64,000 nucleotides of DNA, from assembly GCA_964462785.1 (NCBI GenBank), contig CAYWZA010000002.1, positions 1,061 through 65,060 on the forward strand, written 5' to 3'. Position 1 is the stretch's first letter. Each line of letters begins with the position of its first letter. This stretch comes from an uncultured Candidatus Saccharibacteria bacterium (GTDB lineage: Bacteria; Patescibacteriota; Minisyncoccia; Phycocordibacterales; UBA2100). Positions 13,406 to 53,261 of the stretch are shown here, piece by piece. The notes beneath the pieces were generated by a model that was not told the DNA's origin, searched no databases, and was given only the letters and a program-made list of their open reading frames with translations. The position numbers and the translations under genes were made by a program.

Positions 13406-13478
13406 CCGCCCTTAGCTCAGTTGGTAGAGCAGCTCCCTTTTAAGGAGTTGGTCGTTGGTTCGAATCCAACAGGGCGGA
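13406..13478 (+). tRNA. tRNA-Lys (anticodon TTT)
   Basis: A manual cloverleaf fits. The acceptor stem CCGCCCT pairs with AGGGCGG. The D-arm is GCTCAGTTGGTAGAGC, the anticodon loop is CTTTTAA and the T-arm is GTTGGTTCGAATCCAAC. Confidence 0.8.
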
Positions 13479-13486
13479 CATGACAG

Positions 13487-13513
13487 AAAAACCTGCACTG
13501 ATGCAGGTTTTTC
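13487..13513 (+). terminator. Rho-independent terminator after tRNA-Lys
   Basis: The hairpin is aaaacctgca, loop ctga, then tgcaggtttt, followed by a T-run. Confidence 0.7.
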
Positions 13514-13584
13514 GGTACATGTCCGAGCCGCAGCGCGACCAAAGTTTCTTCGAGTGAAGCGAGTTAGAAACTGGGAGTACTCCT

Positions 13585-13705
13585 GTGGTGATGTTTTTGT
13601 TTGCCGGAGCGAAGCGCAGGCAAGGCAAAAACCGCGAGGCGGGTGAGCTGCGAATACTTGCAGCAGCGCAAGACCTTTTGAGCGATTTTGGAGTGCGCCA
13701 GCACG
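13585..13705 (+). repeat. tRNA-linked structured repeat element, copy E1 (degenerate, downstream of tRNA-Lys)
   Basis: The core gatgtttttgtttgccggagcgaagcgcaggcaaggcaaaaaccgcgag is about 94% identical to the core downstream of tRNA-Arg-TCT at 42107. A second hairpin (gcgattttg...caaaatcgc) follows. Confidence 0.6.
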
Positions 13706-18953: not shown

Positions 18954-19142
18954 CGTGTCCCCTCGGCCGGAATCGGTCACGAATAAATCGCCTGACGGCG
19001 ATTTTTCGCTACCCCGGCTCGCGGTTTTTGTCTCCCCCTCATTTCATTCGGGGAAACAAAAACATCGCTGCGCCTTTCGATTCCGGACGCACAGTGCTCA
19101 AGCGCTATGCTCCGAGGGGACAGTTTTCGCTTCGCTCACGTG
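18954..19142 (-). repeat. tRNA-linked structured repeat element, copy E2, with a perfect 22-bp duplicate of the tRNA-Arg 3' end at its distal border
   Basis: The 22-mer cgtgtcccctcggccggaatcg occurs at 18954-18975 and again at 19139-19160. The second copy is the 3' end of the minus-strand tRNA plus 4 trailer nt. On the minus strand the interior holds the core gcagcgatgtttttgttt, hairpin 1, aaaaaccgcgagccgggg, hairpin 2 (aaatcgccgtcaggcgattt) and tcgtgacc. Confidence 0.7.
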
Positions 19143-41969: not shown

Positions 41970-42041
41970 TGCGTACATTGCCCTCGTAGTTTAATGGATA
42001 AAACTCCGGACTTCTAAGCCGGCTATCGAGGTTCGATTCCT
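41970..42041 (+). tRNA. tRNA-Arg (anticodon TCT)
   Basis: The acceptor GCCCTCG pairs with CGAGGGC. The D-arm is GTTTAATGGATAAAAC, the anticodon loop is CTTCTAA and the T-arm is CGAGGTTCGATTCCTCG. Confidence 0.75.
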
Positions 42042-42095
42042 CGCGAGGGCACACAAGCACAAAACCTGCCCTGCGGCAGGTTTTGTGCTTGTGTG
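42042..42095 (+). terminator. Strong hairpin terminator after tRNA-Arg-TCT
   Basis: The stem is cacaagcacaaaacctgcc, the loop is ctgc and the return strand is ggcaggttttgtgcttgtg. Confidence 0.7.
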
Positions 42096-42285
42096 CCGGG
42101 CGCAGCGATGTTTTTGTTTGCCGACGCGAAGCGAGGCAAGGCAAAAACCGCGAGCCGGGGTCGCGAGATTTTTCCGTCAGGAAAAATACTCGTGACCACA
42201 AAAAGCGCTTAGTGACCGTCAGGTTGATTCCTACCGAGGGCACACACAAACATCCCGCCTGCGCGTGATGTTTGTGTGTGCCAGC
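42096..42285 (+). repeat. tRNA-linked structured repeat element, copy E3, with a degenerate duplicate of the tRNA-Arg-TCT 3' end and a terminal hairpin
   Basis: The core gcagcgatgtttttgtttgccgacgcgaagcgaggcaaggcaaaaaccgcgagccggggtcgcga is followed by hairpin 2 (gatttttcc, gtca, ggaaaaatac), then tcgtgacc, then ggttgattcctaccgagggcaca at 42222-42244. The matching tRNA 3' end is ggttcgattcctcgcgagggcaca. The perfect inverted repeat cacacacaaacatc...gatgtttgtgtgtg closes the element. Confidence 0.7.
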
Positions 42286-42313: not shown

Positions 42314-43819
42314 TCATCCTTTCGAGGTCGATGTCAAGAAACCGCTTCCAACCAAATTGAAAGACGCGTCGTATATGAGAATGTGGTAGTACCCTTCAGA
42401 AAGTCCACCGAATAAAGTTGACCAATTTCCTCCCGAAATAGAAGCGGAATTCGATACTGCAAGATAGCCGCTTCCACCCTTCACAATGTTTCCAACAGAG
42501 CTCCAATCCTTACCGCCTGCGTATTTTATCTCAACGAGAGCCACTGTAAGTGGTCCGCTTACAGATGCCGTGCCAGAGAGCGTGAAGGAGTTGCCAGGCG
42601 CAACGTTTACTGCCGCCATGTACGCTGCGGCGTTTGAGCCAGAATTGATCTGTACTCCTGTCCCATTAAATACATGGGTCGGGTTTGTAACGTAGACTGT
42701 CACTGTTTTTTCTGCCGAAGGTCCATCCTTACCGGTTCCCGGATCATTGGTGCAACCCAATTTATAGGATGTCGTTTGGGAAGGCGAGACAGTCTTTGAA
42801 CCGTTCATTGAAACAATTTCTGTCCACGGCTCGTACAATGAACCGCTCTGTACGAAGCACCGATTTGCATTACTGGAGCTCCACGAGAGTGTTGCAACCT
42901 GTCCTACTAAGATCGTGCTCGGGGATGCTTGGAAAGTTGTGGTGGGTGTTGGCGGTGGGACATATGCATTCGCGACAGTAACAGTTACTTGTCGAATGGC
43001 ATATGCTCCCCCTATGCCCGTATGCGGCGCACAGCGTAATTCGTAGGTCGCGTTTTGAGTGAGGGGGCCGATGACCACCGATGTGACACCGGTTGAGTAA
43101 TTTATCGTTGCTTTACTTAGGTCCACATCCGGAGCCCCCGTAGAGATGGAGCTGATCCCGCATGCTCCAGTATTTGAGGCAGACCATGAGAGCGTGACTG
43201 AGTCCCCGGAAGAAACGCTCGCAGGAGAAGCGTAAAATGTTGTGATTGTAGGACTAGATGAATTTGCTGCGGGCTGAGGTTGTACGCTAGGAGTTGGAGG
43301 GACTACTGTCTGTGCACTGCCACCACACGCCATCGCTGCGCGGGTTTTTGGTCCGGCGTATCCATATCCGGTCGTATCAGCATCTCCAGAGGAAACAACA
43401 CCGCGTGCTGCTTGCCAACGCTGCAGGGCGCGCTCGGTCGCCGGCCCAAAGTATCCCGTAATGCGACCTTCGGGATAAATTGATGAGTTTTGGGCAAGAA
43501 ATTTTTGGAGTTTGGTCACTTCTCCATTCGTCTGCGCATCTGCACGATCGAGATACAAATCAAAGGAAAGAGATATGCAAGATGACGCTGAAGTAGAAGT
43601 TCCTCCGGCACTGGATGAACTTGAGCCGGTAGGGGCGTGTCCACGCAATGATGCTCCCACATTTTGTACTGTAGCGGCATCAGCACCAAATGAAGCCACG
43701 AGGGAAATGATGGCTTGTATCTGACTTTCGGAAAGTGCAGCCTGCGCTGATGCGGGCACAGTTACAAATCCTGATATAAAAAGAGATAGAGCGACGAACG
43801 AGGAAAGCACGAAACGCAT
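42314..43819 (-). CDS. Secreted protein with a PG_binding_1-like domain and Ig-like beta repeats (501 aa), paralogous to the N-terminal part of the 1389-aa protein
   Basis: It has a signal peptide. The segment TKLQKFLAQNSSIYPEGRITGYFGPATERALQRWQAARGVVSSGD aligns with the matching segment of the 3052-7221 protein. The remainder is Ser/Thr/Gly-rich. Confidence 0.65.
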   Translation of the reverse strand: MRFVLSSFVALSLFISGFVTVPASAQAALSESQIQAIISLVASFGADAATVQNVGASLRGHAPTGSSSSSAGGTSTSASSCISLSFDLYLDRADAQTNGEVTKLQKFLAQNSSIYPEGRITGYFGPATERALQRWQAARGVVSSGDADTTGYGYAGPKTRAAMACGGSAQTVVPPTPSVQPQPAANSSSPTITTFYASPASVSSGDSVTLSWSASNTGACGISSISTGAPDVDLSKATINYSTGVTSVVIGPLTQNATYELRCAPHTGIGGAYAIRQVTVTVANAYVPPPTPTTTFQASPSTILVGQVATLSWSSSNANRCFVQSGSLYEPWTEIVSMNGSKTVSPSQTTSYKLGCTNDPGTGKDGPSAEKTVTVYVTNPTHVFNGTGVQINSGSNAAAYMAAVNVAPGNSFTLSGTASVSGPLTVALVEIKYAGGKDWSSVGNIVKGGSGYLAVSNSASISGGNWSTLFGGLSEGYYHILIYDASFNLVGSGFLTSTSKG

Positions 43820-43948: not shown

Positions 43949-44125
43949 GGCGCGCGCTAAGGGACTCGGTCACGGATAATTTTTGTTGCACAAAATTTCC
44001 GCGACCCAGCCTCGGCGTTCCCACTTCGCTCCGCTGCGGGGGACCCTGCGCCTCCGGCTTTCTCGTCCCGTATCACCGCACAAAATAAAATCGCCGAATG
44101 CTGGCGCATCCGGCTTCTTATTTTG
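43949..44125 (-). repeat. tRNA-linked structured repeat element, copy E4 (diverged), with a partial duplicate of the tRNA-Val 3' end
   Basis: Read on the minus strand, hairpin 2 is aattttgt, gcaa, caaaaatt, followed by atccgtgacc, then cgagtcccttagcgc (plus 43953-43968). This matches the tRNA-Val T-arm and acceptor 3' strand for 15 nt. Confidence 0.6.
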
Positions 44126-47617: not shown

Positions 47618-48319
47618 TTGGTAGACGCTATTACCTTGAGGATATGCTACCATGTAGCGATGGGGAAGAGGGGACCAAAGCCGAAAGGCAAAGTAAAAAT
47701 TCGATGGTCGGCTGATTTTGCATACGCAATAGGGCTACTGGTGGCAGATGGGTGTTTATCTCCGAGTGGGAGGCATATCATTCTAGTTTCGAAAGACGAG
47801 GAGCAGCTACATAATTTTAAAAAAGCTTTGGCAATAGATGCACATATAACAAACTCATACCCACTCGCGACCAAAATACGTCGGATCCAGTTTGGGGATG
47901 TTCTGTTCTACCAGTTTTTACTAAGTATTGGGCTCATACCAAACAAATCGAAGGTTATCGGAAAGATACAGATTCCCAAAAAATACTTTTTCGATTTTCT
48001 TCGAGGATCCTTTGATGGTGATGGTTCTAGTTATTCATATTTTGACCCACGGTGGCAATCAAGTTTTATGTTTTACACCTGTTTTGTTTCTGCAAGCAAG
48101 ACGCATTTAGATTGGTTGCAGGAGGAAATCTTCAGCAGACTTGGAGTTAGTGGTCACATCACTCACACAAAAAGTAATACCTTCCACCAGTTAAAATATG
48201 CAAAAAAAGACTCACTTAAAGTATTGAGGAAAATGTACCACTCAAATAAAGTCACATGCCTTTCTCGCAAACGATTGAAAATTGATAAGATGTTAGATAT
48301 AGTTGGTGAACGTCTGTAG
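47618..48319 (+). CDS. LAGLIDADG-family homing endonuclease (double-motif, free-standing)
   Basis: Two LAGLIDADG-like motifs are present: AIGLLVADGCLS and FLRGSFDGDGSS. Local GC is lower than the surroundings. Confidence 0.7.
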   Translation: MVDAITLRICYHVAMGKRGPKPKGKVKIRWSADFAYAIGLLVADGCLSPSGRHIILVSKDEEQLHNFKKALAIDAHITNSYPLATKIRRIQFGDVLFYQFLLSIGLIPNKSKVIGKIQIPKKYFFDFLRGSFDGDGSSYSYFDPRWQSSFMFYTCFVSASKTHLDWLQEEIFSRLGVSGHITHTKSNTFHQLKYAKKDSLKVLRKMYHSNKVTCLSRKRLKIDKMLDIVGERL

Positions 48320-48343: not shown

Positions 48344-48429
48344 GCCCGGGTGGCGAAACTGGCTAGACGTACCACCTTGAGGTGGTGGCGCCCGTTAAGG
48401 GCATGGAGGTTCGAGTCCTCTCCCGGGCA
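48344..48429 (+). tRNA. tRNA-Leu (anticodon GAG), type II
   Basis: The acceptor GCCCGGG pairs with CCCGGGC. The anticodon stem-loop is CCACC TTGAGGT GGTGG. There is a long variable arm, and the T-arm is GGAGGTTCGAGTCCTCT. Confidence 0.75.
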
Positions 48430-48483
48430 CAAAAAACAAAGACGTGGAATGCGAAGCATTCCACGTCTTTGTTTTTTGTGCCC
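48430..48483 (+). terminator. Hairpin terminator after tRNA-Leu
   Basis: The stem caaaaaacaaagacgtggaatgc has loop gaag and return strand gcattccacgtctttgttttttg. Confidence 0.7.
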
Positions 48484-53175: not shown

Positions 53176-53261
53176 ACTCCCGTCAAAACGATTCGACCTC
53201 GCTGCGTAGCGAATTTTTTGTTTTCATGAGAATATGCTCCAAGAAAAAAGGAGCGAAGGCA

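What the first reader, a model, noticed from the sequence alone, without database searches (positions are those of the whole stretch)
41970..42285. Copy E3 of the tRNA-linked element, with compensatory changes in both hairpins and a degenerate tRNA 3' duplicate
tRNA-Arg-TCT is followed by a hairpin terminator and then the same core as E2 (gcagcgatgtttttgttt...aaaaaccgcgagccggggt.gcga). Hairpin 1 has different inner sequences: gccgacgcgaagcgaggcaaggc here versus ccccgaatgaaatgaggggg in E2. Hairpin 2 is atttttcc/ggaaaaat here versus aaatcgcc/ggcgattt in E2, with the same GTCA loop. These compensatory changes preserve pairing and support a selected RNA or DNA secondary structure. The element ends in gtgacc, gtca, and then ggttgattcctaccgagggcaca. 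This is about 87% identical to the tRNA's own T-arm, acceptor 3' strand and 4-nt trailer. A perfect 14-bp inverted repeat closes the unit.
Basis: seen in the sequence. Interest (0 to 1): 0.8.

Follow-up and report, generated by a model that had tools for sequence, protein, structure and literature searches.

The report
Structured repeat element behind tRNA genes
The finding is a real copy of an apparently undescribed small folded non-coding element that sits just behind tRNA and tmRNA genes in Patescibacteria (CPR) and Elusimicrobiota, and whose closing stem is built from a copy and an inverted copy of the neighbouring tRNA's own 3' end.

Summary
tRNA-Arg(TCT) at 41980-42051 is followed by a long hairpin. 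Next comes a core shared with copy E2 that shows compensatory hairpin changes. After that come a GTGACC/GTCA remnant, a 21/24-identical copy of the tRNA 3' end, and a 14-16 bp inverted repeat.

The window holds four copies, behind tRNA-Lys, Arg-GCG, Arg-TCT and Val. A pattern scan plus a covariance model recovered 102 hits, about 100 of them genuine sense-strand copies, from other Patescibacteria and some Elusimicrobiota. None came from viral contigs, Rfam or the literature.

The conserved core K has a P2/P3 arm and a long P4 hairpin ending in CGTGACC, with an invariant G.U. It covaries strongly: 90.5% of cells are paired, against 32-44% when partners are slid.

K lies on the tRNA strand, 13-125 nt behind tRNA or tmRNA genes of at least 17 isotypes. 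Its closing helix is target-derived: the 5' strand complements tRNA nt 54-65 (up to 73), and the 3' strand repeats nt 57-73 exactly in about 22 loci.

A syntenic relative lacks the element at both tRNAs. Tandem, nested and decayed copies exist.

My best reading, at moderate confidence, is a non-coding, structure-dependent mobile element that targets the tRNA T-loop/3' end. A host tRNA-operon RNA module is the main rival. E3 is a composite, partly decayed locus.

The parts
41980..42051 (+). tRNA-Arg(TCT), intact. Its nt 57-73 (42035-42051) are the segment that recurs downstream.
   Evidence: ARAGORN; Rfam tRNA 65.4 bits.
42048..42097 (+). T module. A 23-bp perfect hairpin (loop CTGC, 42071-42074) starting in the last 4 nt of the tRNA. 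The inner GC stem plus T-run looks like an intrinsic terminator.
   Evidence: Sequence. The core ACCTGCCCTGCGGCAGGTTTT is identical in L097, behind a tRNA-Val of another genome. It recurs with compensatory changes in E1.
42099..42197 (+). Conserved core K of copy E3. P2 is 42099-42101 with 42154-42156. The P3 domain (hairpin 1) is 42105-42151. P4 (hairpin 2) is 42159-42197, with loop GTCA at 42176-42179, a G.U at 42163/42193, a bulged A at 42188, and the end ...CGTGACC.
   Evidence: CM R1 hit of 41.6 bits, E 2.4e-11. The model's own alignment (42104-42211) places P1/P2 on GTTTTT/GCC; the P2 assignment used here is mine, by homology with E2's GGCGCAGCG. Fold; covariation.
42197..42203 (+). Short flank CACAAAA, complementary to TTTTGTG (42081-42087) in the 3' arm of the T module. 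This is a vestigial closing helix P1 of the class-2 type.
   Evidence: Sequence. Analogous 0-7 nt flanks occur in L004, L055, L059 and L050.
42212..42221 (+). Relic GTGACC + GTCA, probably the 3' end or P4 tip of an older, mostly deleted copy.
   Evidence: Sequence. A comparable relic ACTCGTGACC|GAATCC... lies downstream of an intact copy in L100.
42222..42244 (+). Degenerate duplicate of tRNA-Arg(TCT) nt 52-73 plus 2 nt of trailer, 21/24 identical. This is the displaced former 3' end (X2).
   Evidence: Sequence comparison. In about 22 other loci the same position holds an exact 17-24 nt repeat of the tRNA 3' end.
42239..42283 (+). Second hairpin (16-bp stem) that starts in the last nt of the duplicate, as the T module does at the live tRNA. 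Probably the former terminator, now shared with the convergent gene that ends at 42314.
   Evidence: Sequence; ORF list.
43954..44069 (-). Copy E4 behind tRNA-Val (44198-44125). The 5' P1 strand is GGGAC (44069-44065) plus GA. K is 44058-43968. X2 is GAGTCCCTTAGCGC (43967-43954), an exact copy of tRNA nt 57-70.
   Evidence: CM 50.8-61.8 bits; sequence. A terminator-like hairpin lies between the tRNA and K.
18954..19121 (-). Copy E2 behind tRNA-Arg(GCG) (19214-19142). The split 5' P1 strand is GTCCCCTCGG (19121-19112) and CCGGAATC (19086-19079), with a degenerate Hx hairpin between them. K is 19074-18975. X2 is GATTCCGGCCGAGGGGACACG (18974-18954), a 21-nt exact repeat.
   Evidence: CM 36-46 bits; sequence; repeat length.
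13476..13675 (+). Copy E1 behind tRNA-Lys (13406-13479), class 2 and degenerate. The T module is 13476-13524. K is 13527-13675, with an enlarged P3 domain and an eroded P4.
   Evidence: CM only 16.1 bits; sequence. The extra P3 insert is shared with L024/L078.

Best explanation
E3 belongs to a family of small (about 65-150 nt) non-coding, structure-dependent elements. I think they are, or recently were, mobile, and that they are specialised on the 3' end of tRNA and tmRNA genes.

SHOWN
- A conserved core K has three parts. The first is a 3-bp P2 enclosing a variable P3 hairpin across a GSAG/CGAG internal loop. The second is a GG linker. The third is a long P4 hairpin with base GGUCGCG/CGUGACC, one invariant G.U and one bulged A.
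- K always lies on the tRNA strand, a few to about 125 nt behind the gene.
- In the canonical class 1, K is closed by a helix P1 whose sequence is taken from the neighbouring tRNA.
  - The 5' strand is the reverse complement of tRNA nt 54-65. In long forms it also covers nt 66-73, split by a conserved hairpin Hx.
  - The 3' strand, starting right after ...GACC, is a direct copy of tRNA nt 57-73 plus 0-14 nt of trailer.
- In class 2, which includes E3 and E1, K directly follows a hairpin module T that starts in the tRNA's last bases. Only 0-7 nt of flank pair.

INFERRED
- The element enters at or next to the T-loop (GGTTC|R, nt 56/57).
- The tRNA 3' segment becomes present twice, so the tRNA stays intact and the old 3' end is left behind to decay.
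- The target-complementary 5' strand acts like an exon-binding or guide segment. It pairs with the flank (and could pair with an unoccupied tRNA), and the folded single strand (RNA, possibly ssDNA) is the active form.
- The enzyme acts in trans and is unknown.

For this locus I infer at least two events. An older T-loop-type insertion displaced the original 3' end and terminator (42222-42283) and has mostly been deleted, leaving the relic at 42212-42221. The present T+K unit (42048-42197) sits behind the restored tRNA.
For: - Family and structure. There are 4 copies in the window. 102 CM hits (E<0.001), about 100 of them genuine sense-strand copies, came from 83 sources (82 loci plus the window), most of them brought in by a pattern scan of GTDB genomes. 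Pairing is 90.5% against 32-44% when partners are slid. The P2 middle pair is CG:53 / GC:35. The G.U is kept in 96 of 101 copies.
- tRNA linkage. 68 of 99 copies have a same-strand tRNA of 17 isotypes within 400 nt upstream, mostly 13-125 nt away. Others follow tmRNA genes.
- Target-derived flanks. About 22 loci have an exact 17-24 nt repeat starting at nt 57. The 5' strand is complementary to the same tRNA in every isotype context. It is the complement of the 3' strand, not a copy of the tRNA's 5' strand (L100 position 6, E2 position 50).
- Presence and absence. The syntenic relative L121 (UppS 77% identical, same pilMNO..tRNA-Arg-TCT..tRNA-Val..acyP-uppS order) has neither E3 nor E4.
- Repeated insertion. 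There are relics behind intact copies (E3; L100). There are also tandem units, and in L076 the second unit's flank copies the decayed flank of the first (18/18) rather than the tRNA.
- K behaves as a unit independent of its flanks. It is 90-95% identical between different tRNAs in different genomes and does not cluster by isotype (9/62 against 5.2 expected) or by genome (7/49).
- It is transcribed in at least some loci. In L092/L129/L130 the order is tRNA-Val, 3 nt, K, X2, 6 nt, tRNA-Arg, which leaves no room for a promoter.
Against: - No transposase, integrase, HUH or reverse-transcriptase gene is inside or consistently beside the element, so mobility is inferred from anatomy only.
- No strain-level filled/empty pair was found. 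A precise deletion between the two direct repeats would also give an 'empty' site like L121.
- No known mechanism simultaneously makes a direct and an inverted copy of the target, least of all with conserved modules (Hx, Hy) at fixed positions inside those copies.
- Near-identity of K across distant genomes, and the alternative WC or tandem G.A closure of P1, look like purifying selection on a working RNA. That fits a host function as well as it fits a selfish one.
- Apart from the one conserved G.U, wobble pairs are no commoner than A.C mismatches. This does not favour RNA over DNA.
- In several loci a terminator-like hairpin lies between the tRNA and K.
Confidence: 0.45

Rival explanations
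1. K is a host cis-acting or structural RNA module of tRNA operons. It is co-transcribed with the tRNA and released by tRNA processing. Its closing helix mimics the acceptor/T-stem stack of the cognate tRNA. It could act as a processing or insulation signal, as a decoy or competitor for the tRNA's 3' half, or as a stable by-product RNA. Copies would be old and kept matched to their tRNA by selection and gene conversion, with occasional loss.
For: - Orientation is strict and K lies close behind the tRNA.
- K sits inside operons with no separate promoter.
- K conservation across Patescibacteria classes and Elusimicrobiota is comparable to that of tRNAs.
- Junction geometry is maintained by either WC or tandem G.A pairs in many tRNA contexts.
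- Long forms fold into acceptor-like 9 bp + Hx + T-stem-like 8 bp, enclosing K. The energy is -93.5 kcal/mol, z = -10.6.
- In L031 the 5' strand matches the flank's own variant rather than the tRNA.
- Canonical terminators often follow the flank (L010, L030, L068, L087).
Against: - Many copies are visibly decaying (E1, E3, and the X2 flanks of L106, L011, L037).
- Relics and nested or tandem copies exist.
- Only about half of the tRNAs in K-bearing loci carry one, and a close relative lacks both E3 and E4.
- Terminator-like hairpins lie between the tRNA and K in several loci.
- K does not cluster by tRNA isotype, as orthologous inheritance would predict.
- The acceptor mimic leaves no free 3' NCCA-type end in the long form.
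Confidence: 0.3
2. K is a miniature integrative DNA element, or the conserved end of larger tRNA-integrating islands. K plus the tRNA-derived palindrome would be an attP-like site read as folded single-stranded DNA, as integron attC or CTX-phage attP are. A recombinase encoded elsewhere would recombine it with the T-loop. The element would bring a replacement tRNA 3' end, as classical tRNA-targeting islands do.
For: - The direct repeats start in the T-loop and usually end at the tRNA 3' end. This is the classical attL/attR signature.
- The repeat is sometimes longer (29-31 nt in L100 and L072), as expected for homology carried by a circle.
- G.U and A.C mismatches are about equally rare.
- In L030, 2.4 kb lies between the tRNA and K, with a 24-nt repeat. 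In L028, a 3-kb ThsB-TIR/SLATT island lies between two K copies. An adjacent 161-aa ORF looked recombinase-like to me by eye but had no Pfam hit.
Against: - No integrase is in the window or in the loci next to K.
- There are no copies in 2.9 million viral contigs.
- An element-borne tRNA 3' end does not explain copies at 17 or more isotypes with the same K.
- It also does not explain L076, where the new flank copies a decayed local flank.
- Whole-length structural covariation is unusual for a double-stranded att site.
Confidence: 0.2
3. The element is ordinary: a generic terminator or REP-like palindrome family, or a chance similarity.
For: Hairpins behind tRNA genes are common in this genome, for example tRNA-Leu at 48344-48482. 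The T module resembles a bidirectional terminator.
Against: - K has invariant junction bases and is a multi-helix junction.
- No T-run follows P4.
- CM E-values reach 1e-31.
- The flanks are tRNA-derived.
- No Rfam family matches.
Confidence: 0.02

Closest known systems
tRNA-gene-targeting integrative elements (prophages, ICEs, genomic islands using tyrosine integrases, and their integrase-less derivatives)
   Same: - The element lies directly 3' of an intact tRNA or tmRNA gene.
- It is bounded by a direct repeat of the tRNA 3' part that starts in the T-loop.
- The displaced copy decays.
- Repeated use of the same site leaves relics.
   Different: - It is only about 65-150 nt, with no gene and no integrase nearby.
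- The same core sits behind 17 or more different tRNAs.
- It carries an inverted copy of the target as well as the direct one.
- The whole length is a conserved, covarying fold.
Group II introns, especially bacterial class C
   Same: - Class-2 copies sit right after terminator-like hairpins, as IIC introns do (my own knowledge).
- The element pairs with its own flank through a variable, target-matched segment, the same logic as EBS/IBS pairing.
- P4 has a bulged A 9 nt from the 3' boundary.
   Different: - It is five to ten times too small.
- Rfam's domain V/VI model (RF00029) does not match.
- The pairing is with the 3' flank.
- No reverse transcriptase is present.
- The host gene is not interrupted.
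IS200/IS605-type miniature elements and TnpB/IscB omega-RNAs
   Same: - Both are strand-specific folded hairpins.
- The 3' boundary is precise, right after a hairpin.
- A conserved scaffold is followed by 17-20 nt of flank, as a 3' guide would be, next to a T-rich motif (GGTTC) in the unoccupied target.
   Different: - Those elements make no target duplication.
- They have fixed ends and usually an adjacent tnpA/tnpB gene.
- No Rfam omega-RNA family matches.
- Here the flank is base-paired to the element's own 5' segment.
Integron attC sites and CTX-phage attP(+)
   Same: Both have conserved structure with variable sequence, asymmetric features (one wobble, one bulge) that mark a strand, and a recombination point at the foot of a hairpin.
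   Different: - There are no R''/R' core sites (GTTRRRY).
- K does not occur in cassette arrays.
- It is tRNA-linked.
- It is a three- to five-way junction rather than a single hairpin.
tRNA-like RNAs (tmRNA tRNA-like domain, bacterial Y RNA YrlA, viral tRNA-like structures)
   Same: Long forms stack an acceptor-like and a T-stem-like helix identical in sequence to the cognate tRNA, with a single hairpin where the D and anticodon arms would be.
   Different: - There is no T-loop; K replaces it.
- There is no free 3' end in the predicted fold.
- Each copy mimics a different tRNA.
- Rfam tRNA, tmRNA and Y-RNA models do not match K.
Intergenic structured repeats (REP/BIME, ERIC, Correia/NEMIS, RUP)
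   Same: All are short, multi-copy, non-coding, palindromic, often co-transcribed with neighbouring genes, and prone to break assemblies.
   Different: Those families have fixed termini or TIRs and no dependence on a particular gene class. None builds its closing stem from the neighbouring gene.

Membership tests
Any Rfam 15 RNA family (including hammerhead, twister, pistol, hatchet, HDV-like, group II domain V/VI, HEARO, Y RNA, tmRNA) | Covariance-model match at or near the gathering score | tested here: not met
   Only tRNAs pass gathering in the whole window. With E up to 10 nothing credible overlaps K in E3 or in the canonical copy L092.
Intrinsic terminator | Single GC-rich hairpin followed directly by a T-run | tested here: not met
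   K is a junction of P2/P3 and P4 with invariant linker bases. P4 ends in CGTGACC followed by tRNA-derived sequence, not a T-run. The separate T module does look terminator-like.
tRNA-targeting integrative element (attL/attR) | Direct repeats of the tRNA 3' part flanking the insert, starting in the T- or anticodon loop | tested here: met
   An exact 17-24 nt repeat from nt 57 occurs in about 22 loci, and decayed versions in most others.
tRNA-targeting integrative element (attL/attR) | Integrase gene within or next to the element | tested here: not met
   The insert is 65-250 nt and non-coding. No integrase appears in ORFs around E3/E4 or in the two cargo-bearing loci examined. Whole genomes were not searched.
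IS200/IS605 miniature element / omega-RNA | No target duplication; fixed short target 5' of the left end; TnpA/TnpB in the genome | tested here: not met
   The tRNA 3' segment is duplicated, and the sequence left of K varies with the tRNA. Presence of tnpA/tnpB elsewhere in these genomes was not tested.
Group II intron (class C) | Domains I-VI (at least 400 nt), GUGYG 5' end, domain V catalytic hairpin | tested here: not met
   K is 66-110 nt and RF00029 does not match. GTGCG occurs at the T/K junction of some class-2 copies only.
Integron attC | Inverse core and core sites (RYYYAAC ... GTTRRRY) bounding an imperfect hairpin, in cassette arrays | tested here: not met
   The boundaries are G-SC-GSAG ... 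CGTGACC. Copies are solitary behind tRNAs.
Casposon / Cas1-type integration | Fixed 14-15 bp target duplication at a tRNA 3' end, terminal inverted repeats, cas1 gene | tested here: not met
   The repeat length varies from 14 to 31 nt, with a fixed start and a variable end. K has no fixed TIRs. cas1 was not searched genome-wide.
Mobile element in general | Filled and empty alleles of the same site differing exactly by the element | tested here: inconclusive
   A syntenic relative lacks both E3 and E4, but at 77% protein identity the flanks cannot be aligned base by base. Same-species contigs all carry the element. One empty-site scan found nothing.
Functional structured RNA | Covariation beyond phylogenetic expectation on the transcribed strand | tested here: met
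   Searches show 0 of 500 shuffles reaching the observed values, and the slid controls are 2-3 times lower. Caveats: the large alignment was fitted to the model, and G.U is not enriched over A.C apart from one invariant pair. A single-stranded DNA fold is therefore not excluded.
Functional structured RNA | Evidence of transcription | not testable with these tools
   Only indirect evidence exists: K lies between two tRNAs with 3 and 6 nt spacers and no promoter.

The most novel reading that the evidence does not exclude
K is the catalytic or protein-binding scaffold of a new class of target-programmed RNA element.

Its 5' segment, often split in two by a hairpin, pairs with nt 54-73 of a specific tRNA. 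Its 3' end is joined to a copy of exactly that tRNA segment. This is what one would expect if the element cleaves or invades the tRNA (RNA or gene) at the T-loop, nt 56/57, and becomes linked to the 3' fragment.

It would then be either a self-propagating ribozyme-like parasite of tRNA genes or a per-tRNA cis-regulator that competes with the tRNA's own 3' half.
Probability: 0.3. Interest if true: 0.92.

Novelty: new variant of a known kind. Interest (0 to 1): 0.75.

Why it matters
Patescibacteria have tiny genomes, yet about half of the tRNA and tmRNA genes in the sampled loci carry this element. A 66-nt core is kept 90-95% identical across classes, so something maintains it.

If it is mobile, it is a gene-free element that recognises any tRNA through the universal T-loop, preserves the tRNA it hits, and tailors its own closing helix to each target. 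No described bacterial repeat or insertion sequence behaves this way. It would point to an unknown enzyme or a ribozyme activity.

If it is a host RNA, it is a widespread tRNA-operon component that mimics the acceptor/T-stem stack of its neighbour. That would bear on how these organisms mature or control tRNAs.

Two practical consequences follow:
- The element breaks assemblies at tRNA loci (the L122 and L126 contigs end in or at it).
- It leaves pseudo-tRNA 3' ends that can mislead annotation of att sites and genomic islands.

Tried and rejected
- Rfam at gathering and at E up to 10, on E3 and on a canonical copy: nothing but tRNAs.
- Literature searches by topic and by the core sequence itself: no description found. 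The paper on group I introns in Patescibacteria tRNAs does not mention it.
- Viral contigs: two pattern hits, neither genuine by the model.
- Empty-site hunt: the E2 flank pattern gave no metagenome hit. The L092 flank pattern gave two contigs, both filled and identical. The same-species contigs for the window add nothing.
- Hammerhead reading of GAUGAGAAAG, rejected. The string arises from tandem G.A closure of P1 next to the tRNA-derived GAA, and no CUGAUGA core exists.
- K-turn reading of GSAG/CGAG, rejected as a strict K-turn. Position 21 is G or C, so the first G.A pair is not conserved.
- Group II domain V/VI reading of P3/P4: not supported by RF00029.
- Orthology by tRNA type: K does not cluster by isotype.
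- Recent intragenomic bursts: K does not generally cluster by genome.
- Simple snap-back copying as the origin of the inverted segment, judged insufficient. Conserved hairpins (Hx, Hy) interrupt the target-derived strands at fixed positions in independent copies. In addition, trailer repeats are direct, not inverted (L072, L100).
- The match at 53206-53223 is not a copy.
Full report
**1. The observation**

tRNA-Arg(TCT) is at 41980-42051. A 23-bp perfect hairpin at 42048-42097 begins in the last four bases of the tRNA.

Two strings then match copy E2 on the minus strand near 19050 with no mismatches. They are GCAGCGATGTTTTTGTTT at 42102-42119 and AAAAACCGCGAGCCGGGG at 42143-42160. Shuffled sequence gives about 0.1 such matches.

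Both hairpins differ from E2 by compensating changes:
- The inner stem of hairpin 1 is GCC/GGC in E3 and CCCC/GGGG in E2.
- Hairpin 2 is ATTTTTCC/GGAAAAAT in E3 and AAATCGCC/GGCGATTT in E2, around the same GTCA loop.
- The base of hairpin 2 pairs too. It is GGTCGCGAG/CTCGTGACC in E3, GGTAGCGAA/TTCGTGACC in E2 and GGTCGCGGA/TCCGTGACC in E4.

Downstream lie GTGACC (42212-42217) and GTCA (42218-42221). Then comes GGTTGATTCCTACCGAGGGCACA (42222-42244), which is 21/24 identical to tRNA positions 42030-42053. A 14-bp perfect inverted repeat follows (16 bp with the flanking GG/CC, 42239-42283). Folding of 42098-42245 gives z = -5.45.

**2. Copies in the window**

ARAGORN finds seven tRNAs. A covariance model (R1) was built only from copies in other genomes and run over the window without filters. 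It finds exactly four elements:

| Copy | Upstream tRNA | Model hit | Strand | Score |
|---|---|---|---|---|
| E4 | tRNA-Val | 43962-44068 | - | 50.8 bits |
| E3 | tRNA-Arg(TCT) | 42104-42211 | + | 41.6 bits |
| E2 | tRNA-Arg(GCG) | 18973-19080 | - | 36.3 bits |
| E1 | tRNA-Lys | 13587-13683 | + | 16.1 bits (eroded) |

tRNA-Ser, tRNA-Leu and tRNA-His have none.

In E2 the 21 nt after CGTGACC (GATTCCGGCCGAGGGGACACG) repeat the tRNA exactly, from T-loop nt 57 to 3-4 nt past its end. In E4, 14 nt do so.

**3. The family**

I scanned one genome per GTDB species with CGAGSCNGGGTNGCG-N(20-36)-CGTGACC.
- About two thirds are Patescibacteria: Paceibacteria, Kaiser-, Nomura-, Zambryski-, Taylor-, Adler- and Tagabacteria, and Saccharimonadales.
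- A few are Elusimicrobiota.
- The rest are chance hits in high-GC genomes that the model rejects.

R1 then found 102 hits (E<0.001) in 83 sources, which are 82 loci plus the window. Scores reach 104 bits. A few low-scoring hits are antisense matches to the P4 palindrome or partial copies, so about 100 are genuine sense-strand copies.

Nothing genuine occurs in 2.9 million viral contigs. Rfam has no matching family. Text searches, including a search for the core sequence itself, found no description.

**4. Anatomy of the core K**

From 5' to 3' the core consists of:
- G, then P2 (GSC).
- G-S-A-G, then P3, a variable hairpin often with a GACG or GCGAAGC-type tip.
- C-G-A-G, then P2' (GSC), then GG.
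- P4: GGUCGCG..., a variable AU-rich upper stem, a loop (AGCA, GUCA or a longer GAGCGACGGCGAG tip), a bulged A, and ...CGUGACC.

On 19 equal-length copies, 30 columns are invariant.

On 101 distinct copies:
- The four helices are 90.5% paired, against 32-44% for slid partners.
- 28 of 32 pairs change on both sides.
- The P2 middle pair is CG in 53 copies and GC in 35.
- One G.U in P4 is kept in 96 copies.

This alignment was fitted to the model, so it leans towards the structure. The ungapped seed alignment gives the same picture.

Apart from the invariant G.U, wobble pairs (about 20) are no commoner than A.C mismatches (about 17) in P3/P4. The fold is strand-specific, but RNA is not proven over single-stranded DNA.

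**5. Link to tRNAs**

- 68 of 99 copies have a tRNA on the same strand within 400 nt upstream, mostly 13-125 nt away, covering 17 isotypes.
- Several of the remainder follow tmRNA genes (L106, L011, L015) or lie at contig ends.
- In the K-bearing loci, 80 of 161 tRNA/tmRNA genes have K behind them. This sample is biased, because each locus was chosen for having a copy.

**6. The closing helix comes from the neighbour**

In class 1, the sequence just after ...GACC repeats the upstream tRNA from nt 57.
- It is exact for 17-24 nt in about 22 loci and usually stops at the tRNA's last base.
- It sometimes runs 3-14 nt into the trailer (E2, L020, L023, L030, L072, L100).

The sequence just before K is the reverse complement of the same tRNA:
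- It always covers nt 57-62/65.
- It is followed by GAA, which is the complement of T-loop TTC. Class-2 copies lack this GAA.
- It often also covers nt 66-73, placed further upstream.

Examples are L100 (17-nt perfect inverted copy, 20 bp with the trailer), L096, L028, L106, L011, L047 and E2.

Two cases show that this strand is a complement of the 3' strand, not a copy of the tRNA's own 5' strand:
- In L100 it has T opposite A67, where the tRNA has C6.
- In E2 it has C opposite G64, where the tRNA has U50.

The innermost two pairs are either Watson-Crick (TC:GA) or tandem G.A (GGACGAGAAAG, GGATGAGAAAG). Both forms recur in many tRNA contexts, which indicates selection on the junction.

**7. 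Extra modules**

Four conserved modules sit at fixed places:
- Hx, a conserved hairpin (AAGCAAGCnAACTGCTTnGCTTGCG), splits the 5' strand exactly at the nt 65/66 boundary. It occurs in L037, L045, L020, L047 and L053, and is degenerate in E2.
- Hy (AA-nnGTAATCnn-GG) is inserted between nt 58 and 59 of the 3' flank. It occurs in L022, L028, L053, L075 and L118.
- A spacer module (AATGAyC...CATCATT) recurs behind tRNA-Ser and tRNA-Trp in several genomes.
- A T hairpin (ACCTGCC-CTGC-GGCAGGT) is shared by E3, E1 and L097.

A complete long unit (L022) folds into a 9-bp acceptor-like stem, Hx, and an 8-bp T-stem-like helix that encloses P2/P3, P4 and Hy. The energy is -93.5 kcal/mol, z = -10.6, and this structure makes up 57% of the ensemble. 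The outer helices are thus a mimic of the cognate tRNA's acceptor/T-stem stack, with K in place of the T-loop.

**8. Class 2**

In E3, E1, L004, L032, L035, L055, L059, L087, L097, L099 and L110, K directly follows the 3' arm of a hairpin that starts in the tRNA's last bases. Only 0-7 nt after K repeat the hairpin's 5' arm.

E3's candidate is CACAAAA (42197-42203) against TTTTGTG (42081-42087).

**9. Dynamics**

Presence and absence:
- The syntenic relative L121 (UppS 77% identical, same gene order) has plain tRNA-Arg(TCT) and tRNA-Val with no element.
- Contigs of relatives end in or at the element (L122, L126).

Signs of repeated insertion:
- Relics of older copies follow intact ones (L100: ACTCGTGACC|GAATCCTAACTGGACG; E3: 42212-42244).
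- Nested or tandem units occur in L100, L022, L032 and L076.
- In L076 the two K cores are 80% identical, yet the second flank equals the first, already diverged, flank at 18/18 positions rather than the tRNA. The repeat is therefore made from the local target.

How K sequences relate to each other:
- K is 90-95% identical between different tRNAs in different genomes, for example L092 Val against L070 Ser at 0.95.
- It clusters neither by isotype (9/62 against 5.2 expected, p about 0.1) nor by genome (7/49).

Population data:
- Two metagenome contigs of the L092 species carry the same filled allele.
- No empty allele was found.

**10. Transcription**

In L092/L129/L130 the order is promoter-like TATAGT, tRNA-Val, 3 nt, K, flank, 6 nt, tRNA-Arg. 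K must be transcribed there.

Elsewhere a terminator-like hairpin separates the tRNA from K (E4: 44114-44093; L106, L011, L047). Canonical terminators often follow the flank (L010, L030, L068, L087).

**11. Interpretation**

The anatomy combines four things:
- the attL/attR signature of T-loop-targeting integrative elements;
- a flank-pairing segment, as in self-splicing introns or guide RNAs;
- whole-length structural conservation, as in a ribozyme or RNP RNA;
- the turnover of a selfish repeat.

I therefore favour, at about 0.45, a gene-free, structure-dependent mobile element of tRNA 3' ends that acts as a folded single strand. How the direct and inverted target copies are produced is unexplained.

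The main rival, at about 0.3, is a host tRNA-operon RNA module kept matched to its tRNA. A miniature integrative DNA element, or the conserved end of larger islands, comes third at about 0.2. Two loci with cargo hint at it: 2.4 kb in L030, and a 3-kb ThsB-TIR/SLATT/PGDYG island between two K copies in L028. A generic terminator or a chance match is excluded.

**12. The E3 locus itself**

E3 is best read as composite.
- The degenerate tRNA 3' end with its own hairpin (42222-42283) is the former end of the gene. An older T-loop-type insertion displaced it, and only GTGACC/GTCA remains of that insertion.
- The live tRNA now ends in a newer 3' segment followed by the T module and a class-2 K (42048-42197).

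Noticed in passing
window 48344-48482: tRNA-Leu(GAG) has no element, but it is followed by a 28-bp perfect hairpin that begins in the tRNA's last 5 nt (GGGCACAAAAAACAAAGACGTGGAATGC/...). Long hairpins overlapping tRNA 3' ends seem to be a native feature of this genome. They may be what class-2 copies attach to.
   Followed up: partly
window about 47660-48319 (mapped from L125 7158-7817): A 219-aa ORF with a faint LAGLIDADG_3 hit lies immediately upstream of tRNA-Leu. It may be a free-standing homing-endonuclease-like gene next to a tRNA.
   Followed up: no
L106 119-683; L011 7042-7607; L015 6879-7470: The same element sits behind tmRNA (ssrA) genes. Its 5' strand is complementary to the tmRNA's tRNA-like 3' end, and a decayed copy of that end follows K.
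   Followed up: yes
L028 1391-4510: Two copies 3 kb apart share an identical P4 plus 45 nt of flank. They bracket a small island encoding a ThsB-type TIR protein, a SLATT/DUF4231 membrane protein and a PGDYG protein. A 161-aa ORF there looked recombinase-like to me but had no Pfam hit. Defence-type cargo may ride between copies.
   Followed up: partly
L030 5137-7676: tRNA-Ala and its K copy are separated by 2.4 kb (a membrane protein and a DnaJ-type zinc-finger protein), yet the flank after K repeats the tRNA for 24 nt.
   Followed up: partly
L100 6091-7830: Three neighbouring tRNAs (Arg, Gly, Pro) all carry copies. One has the compensated variant GGCTGCG/CGTAGCC at the P4 base. One is interrupted by another partial copy. 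One flank repeat is 29 nt long and includes 12 nt of trailer.
   Followed up: partly
L122 1-89; L126 start: Contigs from relatives, and from the same species, begin inside or right next to the element. It is therefore repetitive enough to break short-read assemblies at tRNA loci.
   Followed up: no
L029, L049, L082, L084: GC-rich versions of the element occur in Elusimicrobiota MAGs, with GCAAG instead of GAAAG before P2. The family thus crosses phylum boundaries.
   Followed up: partly
many loci, e.g. window 42128-42134, 19133-19127, 13608-13614: Hairpin tips are repeatedly GCGAAGC-type (GAA triloop) or CTGC tetraloops. P3/P4 loops often read AGCA/CAGCAG, which is complementary to the CTGCT in the Hx loop, so a loop-loop contact is possible. 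I did not test this.
   Followed up: no
window 53206-53223: A 3-mismatch match to the hairpin-1 string lies upstream of thyA. It is not a copy of the element; the covariance model finds nothing there.
   Followed up: yes
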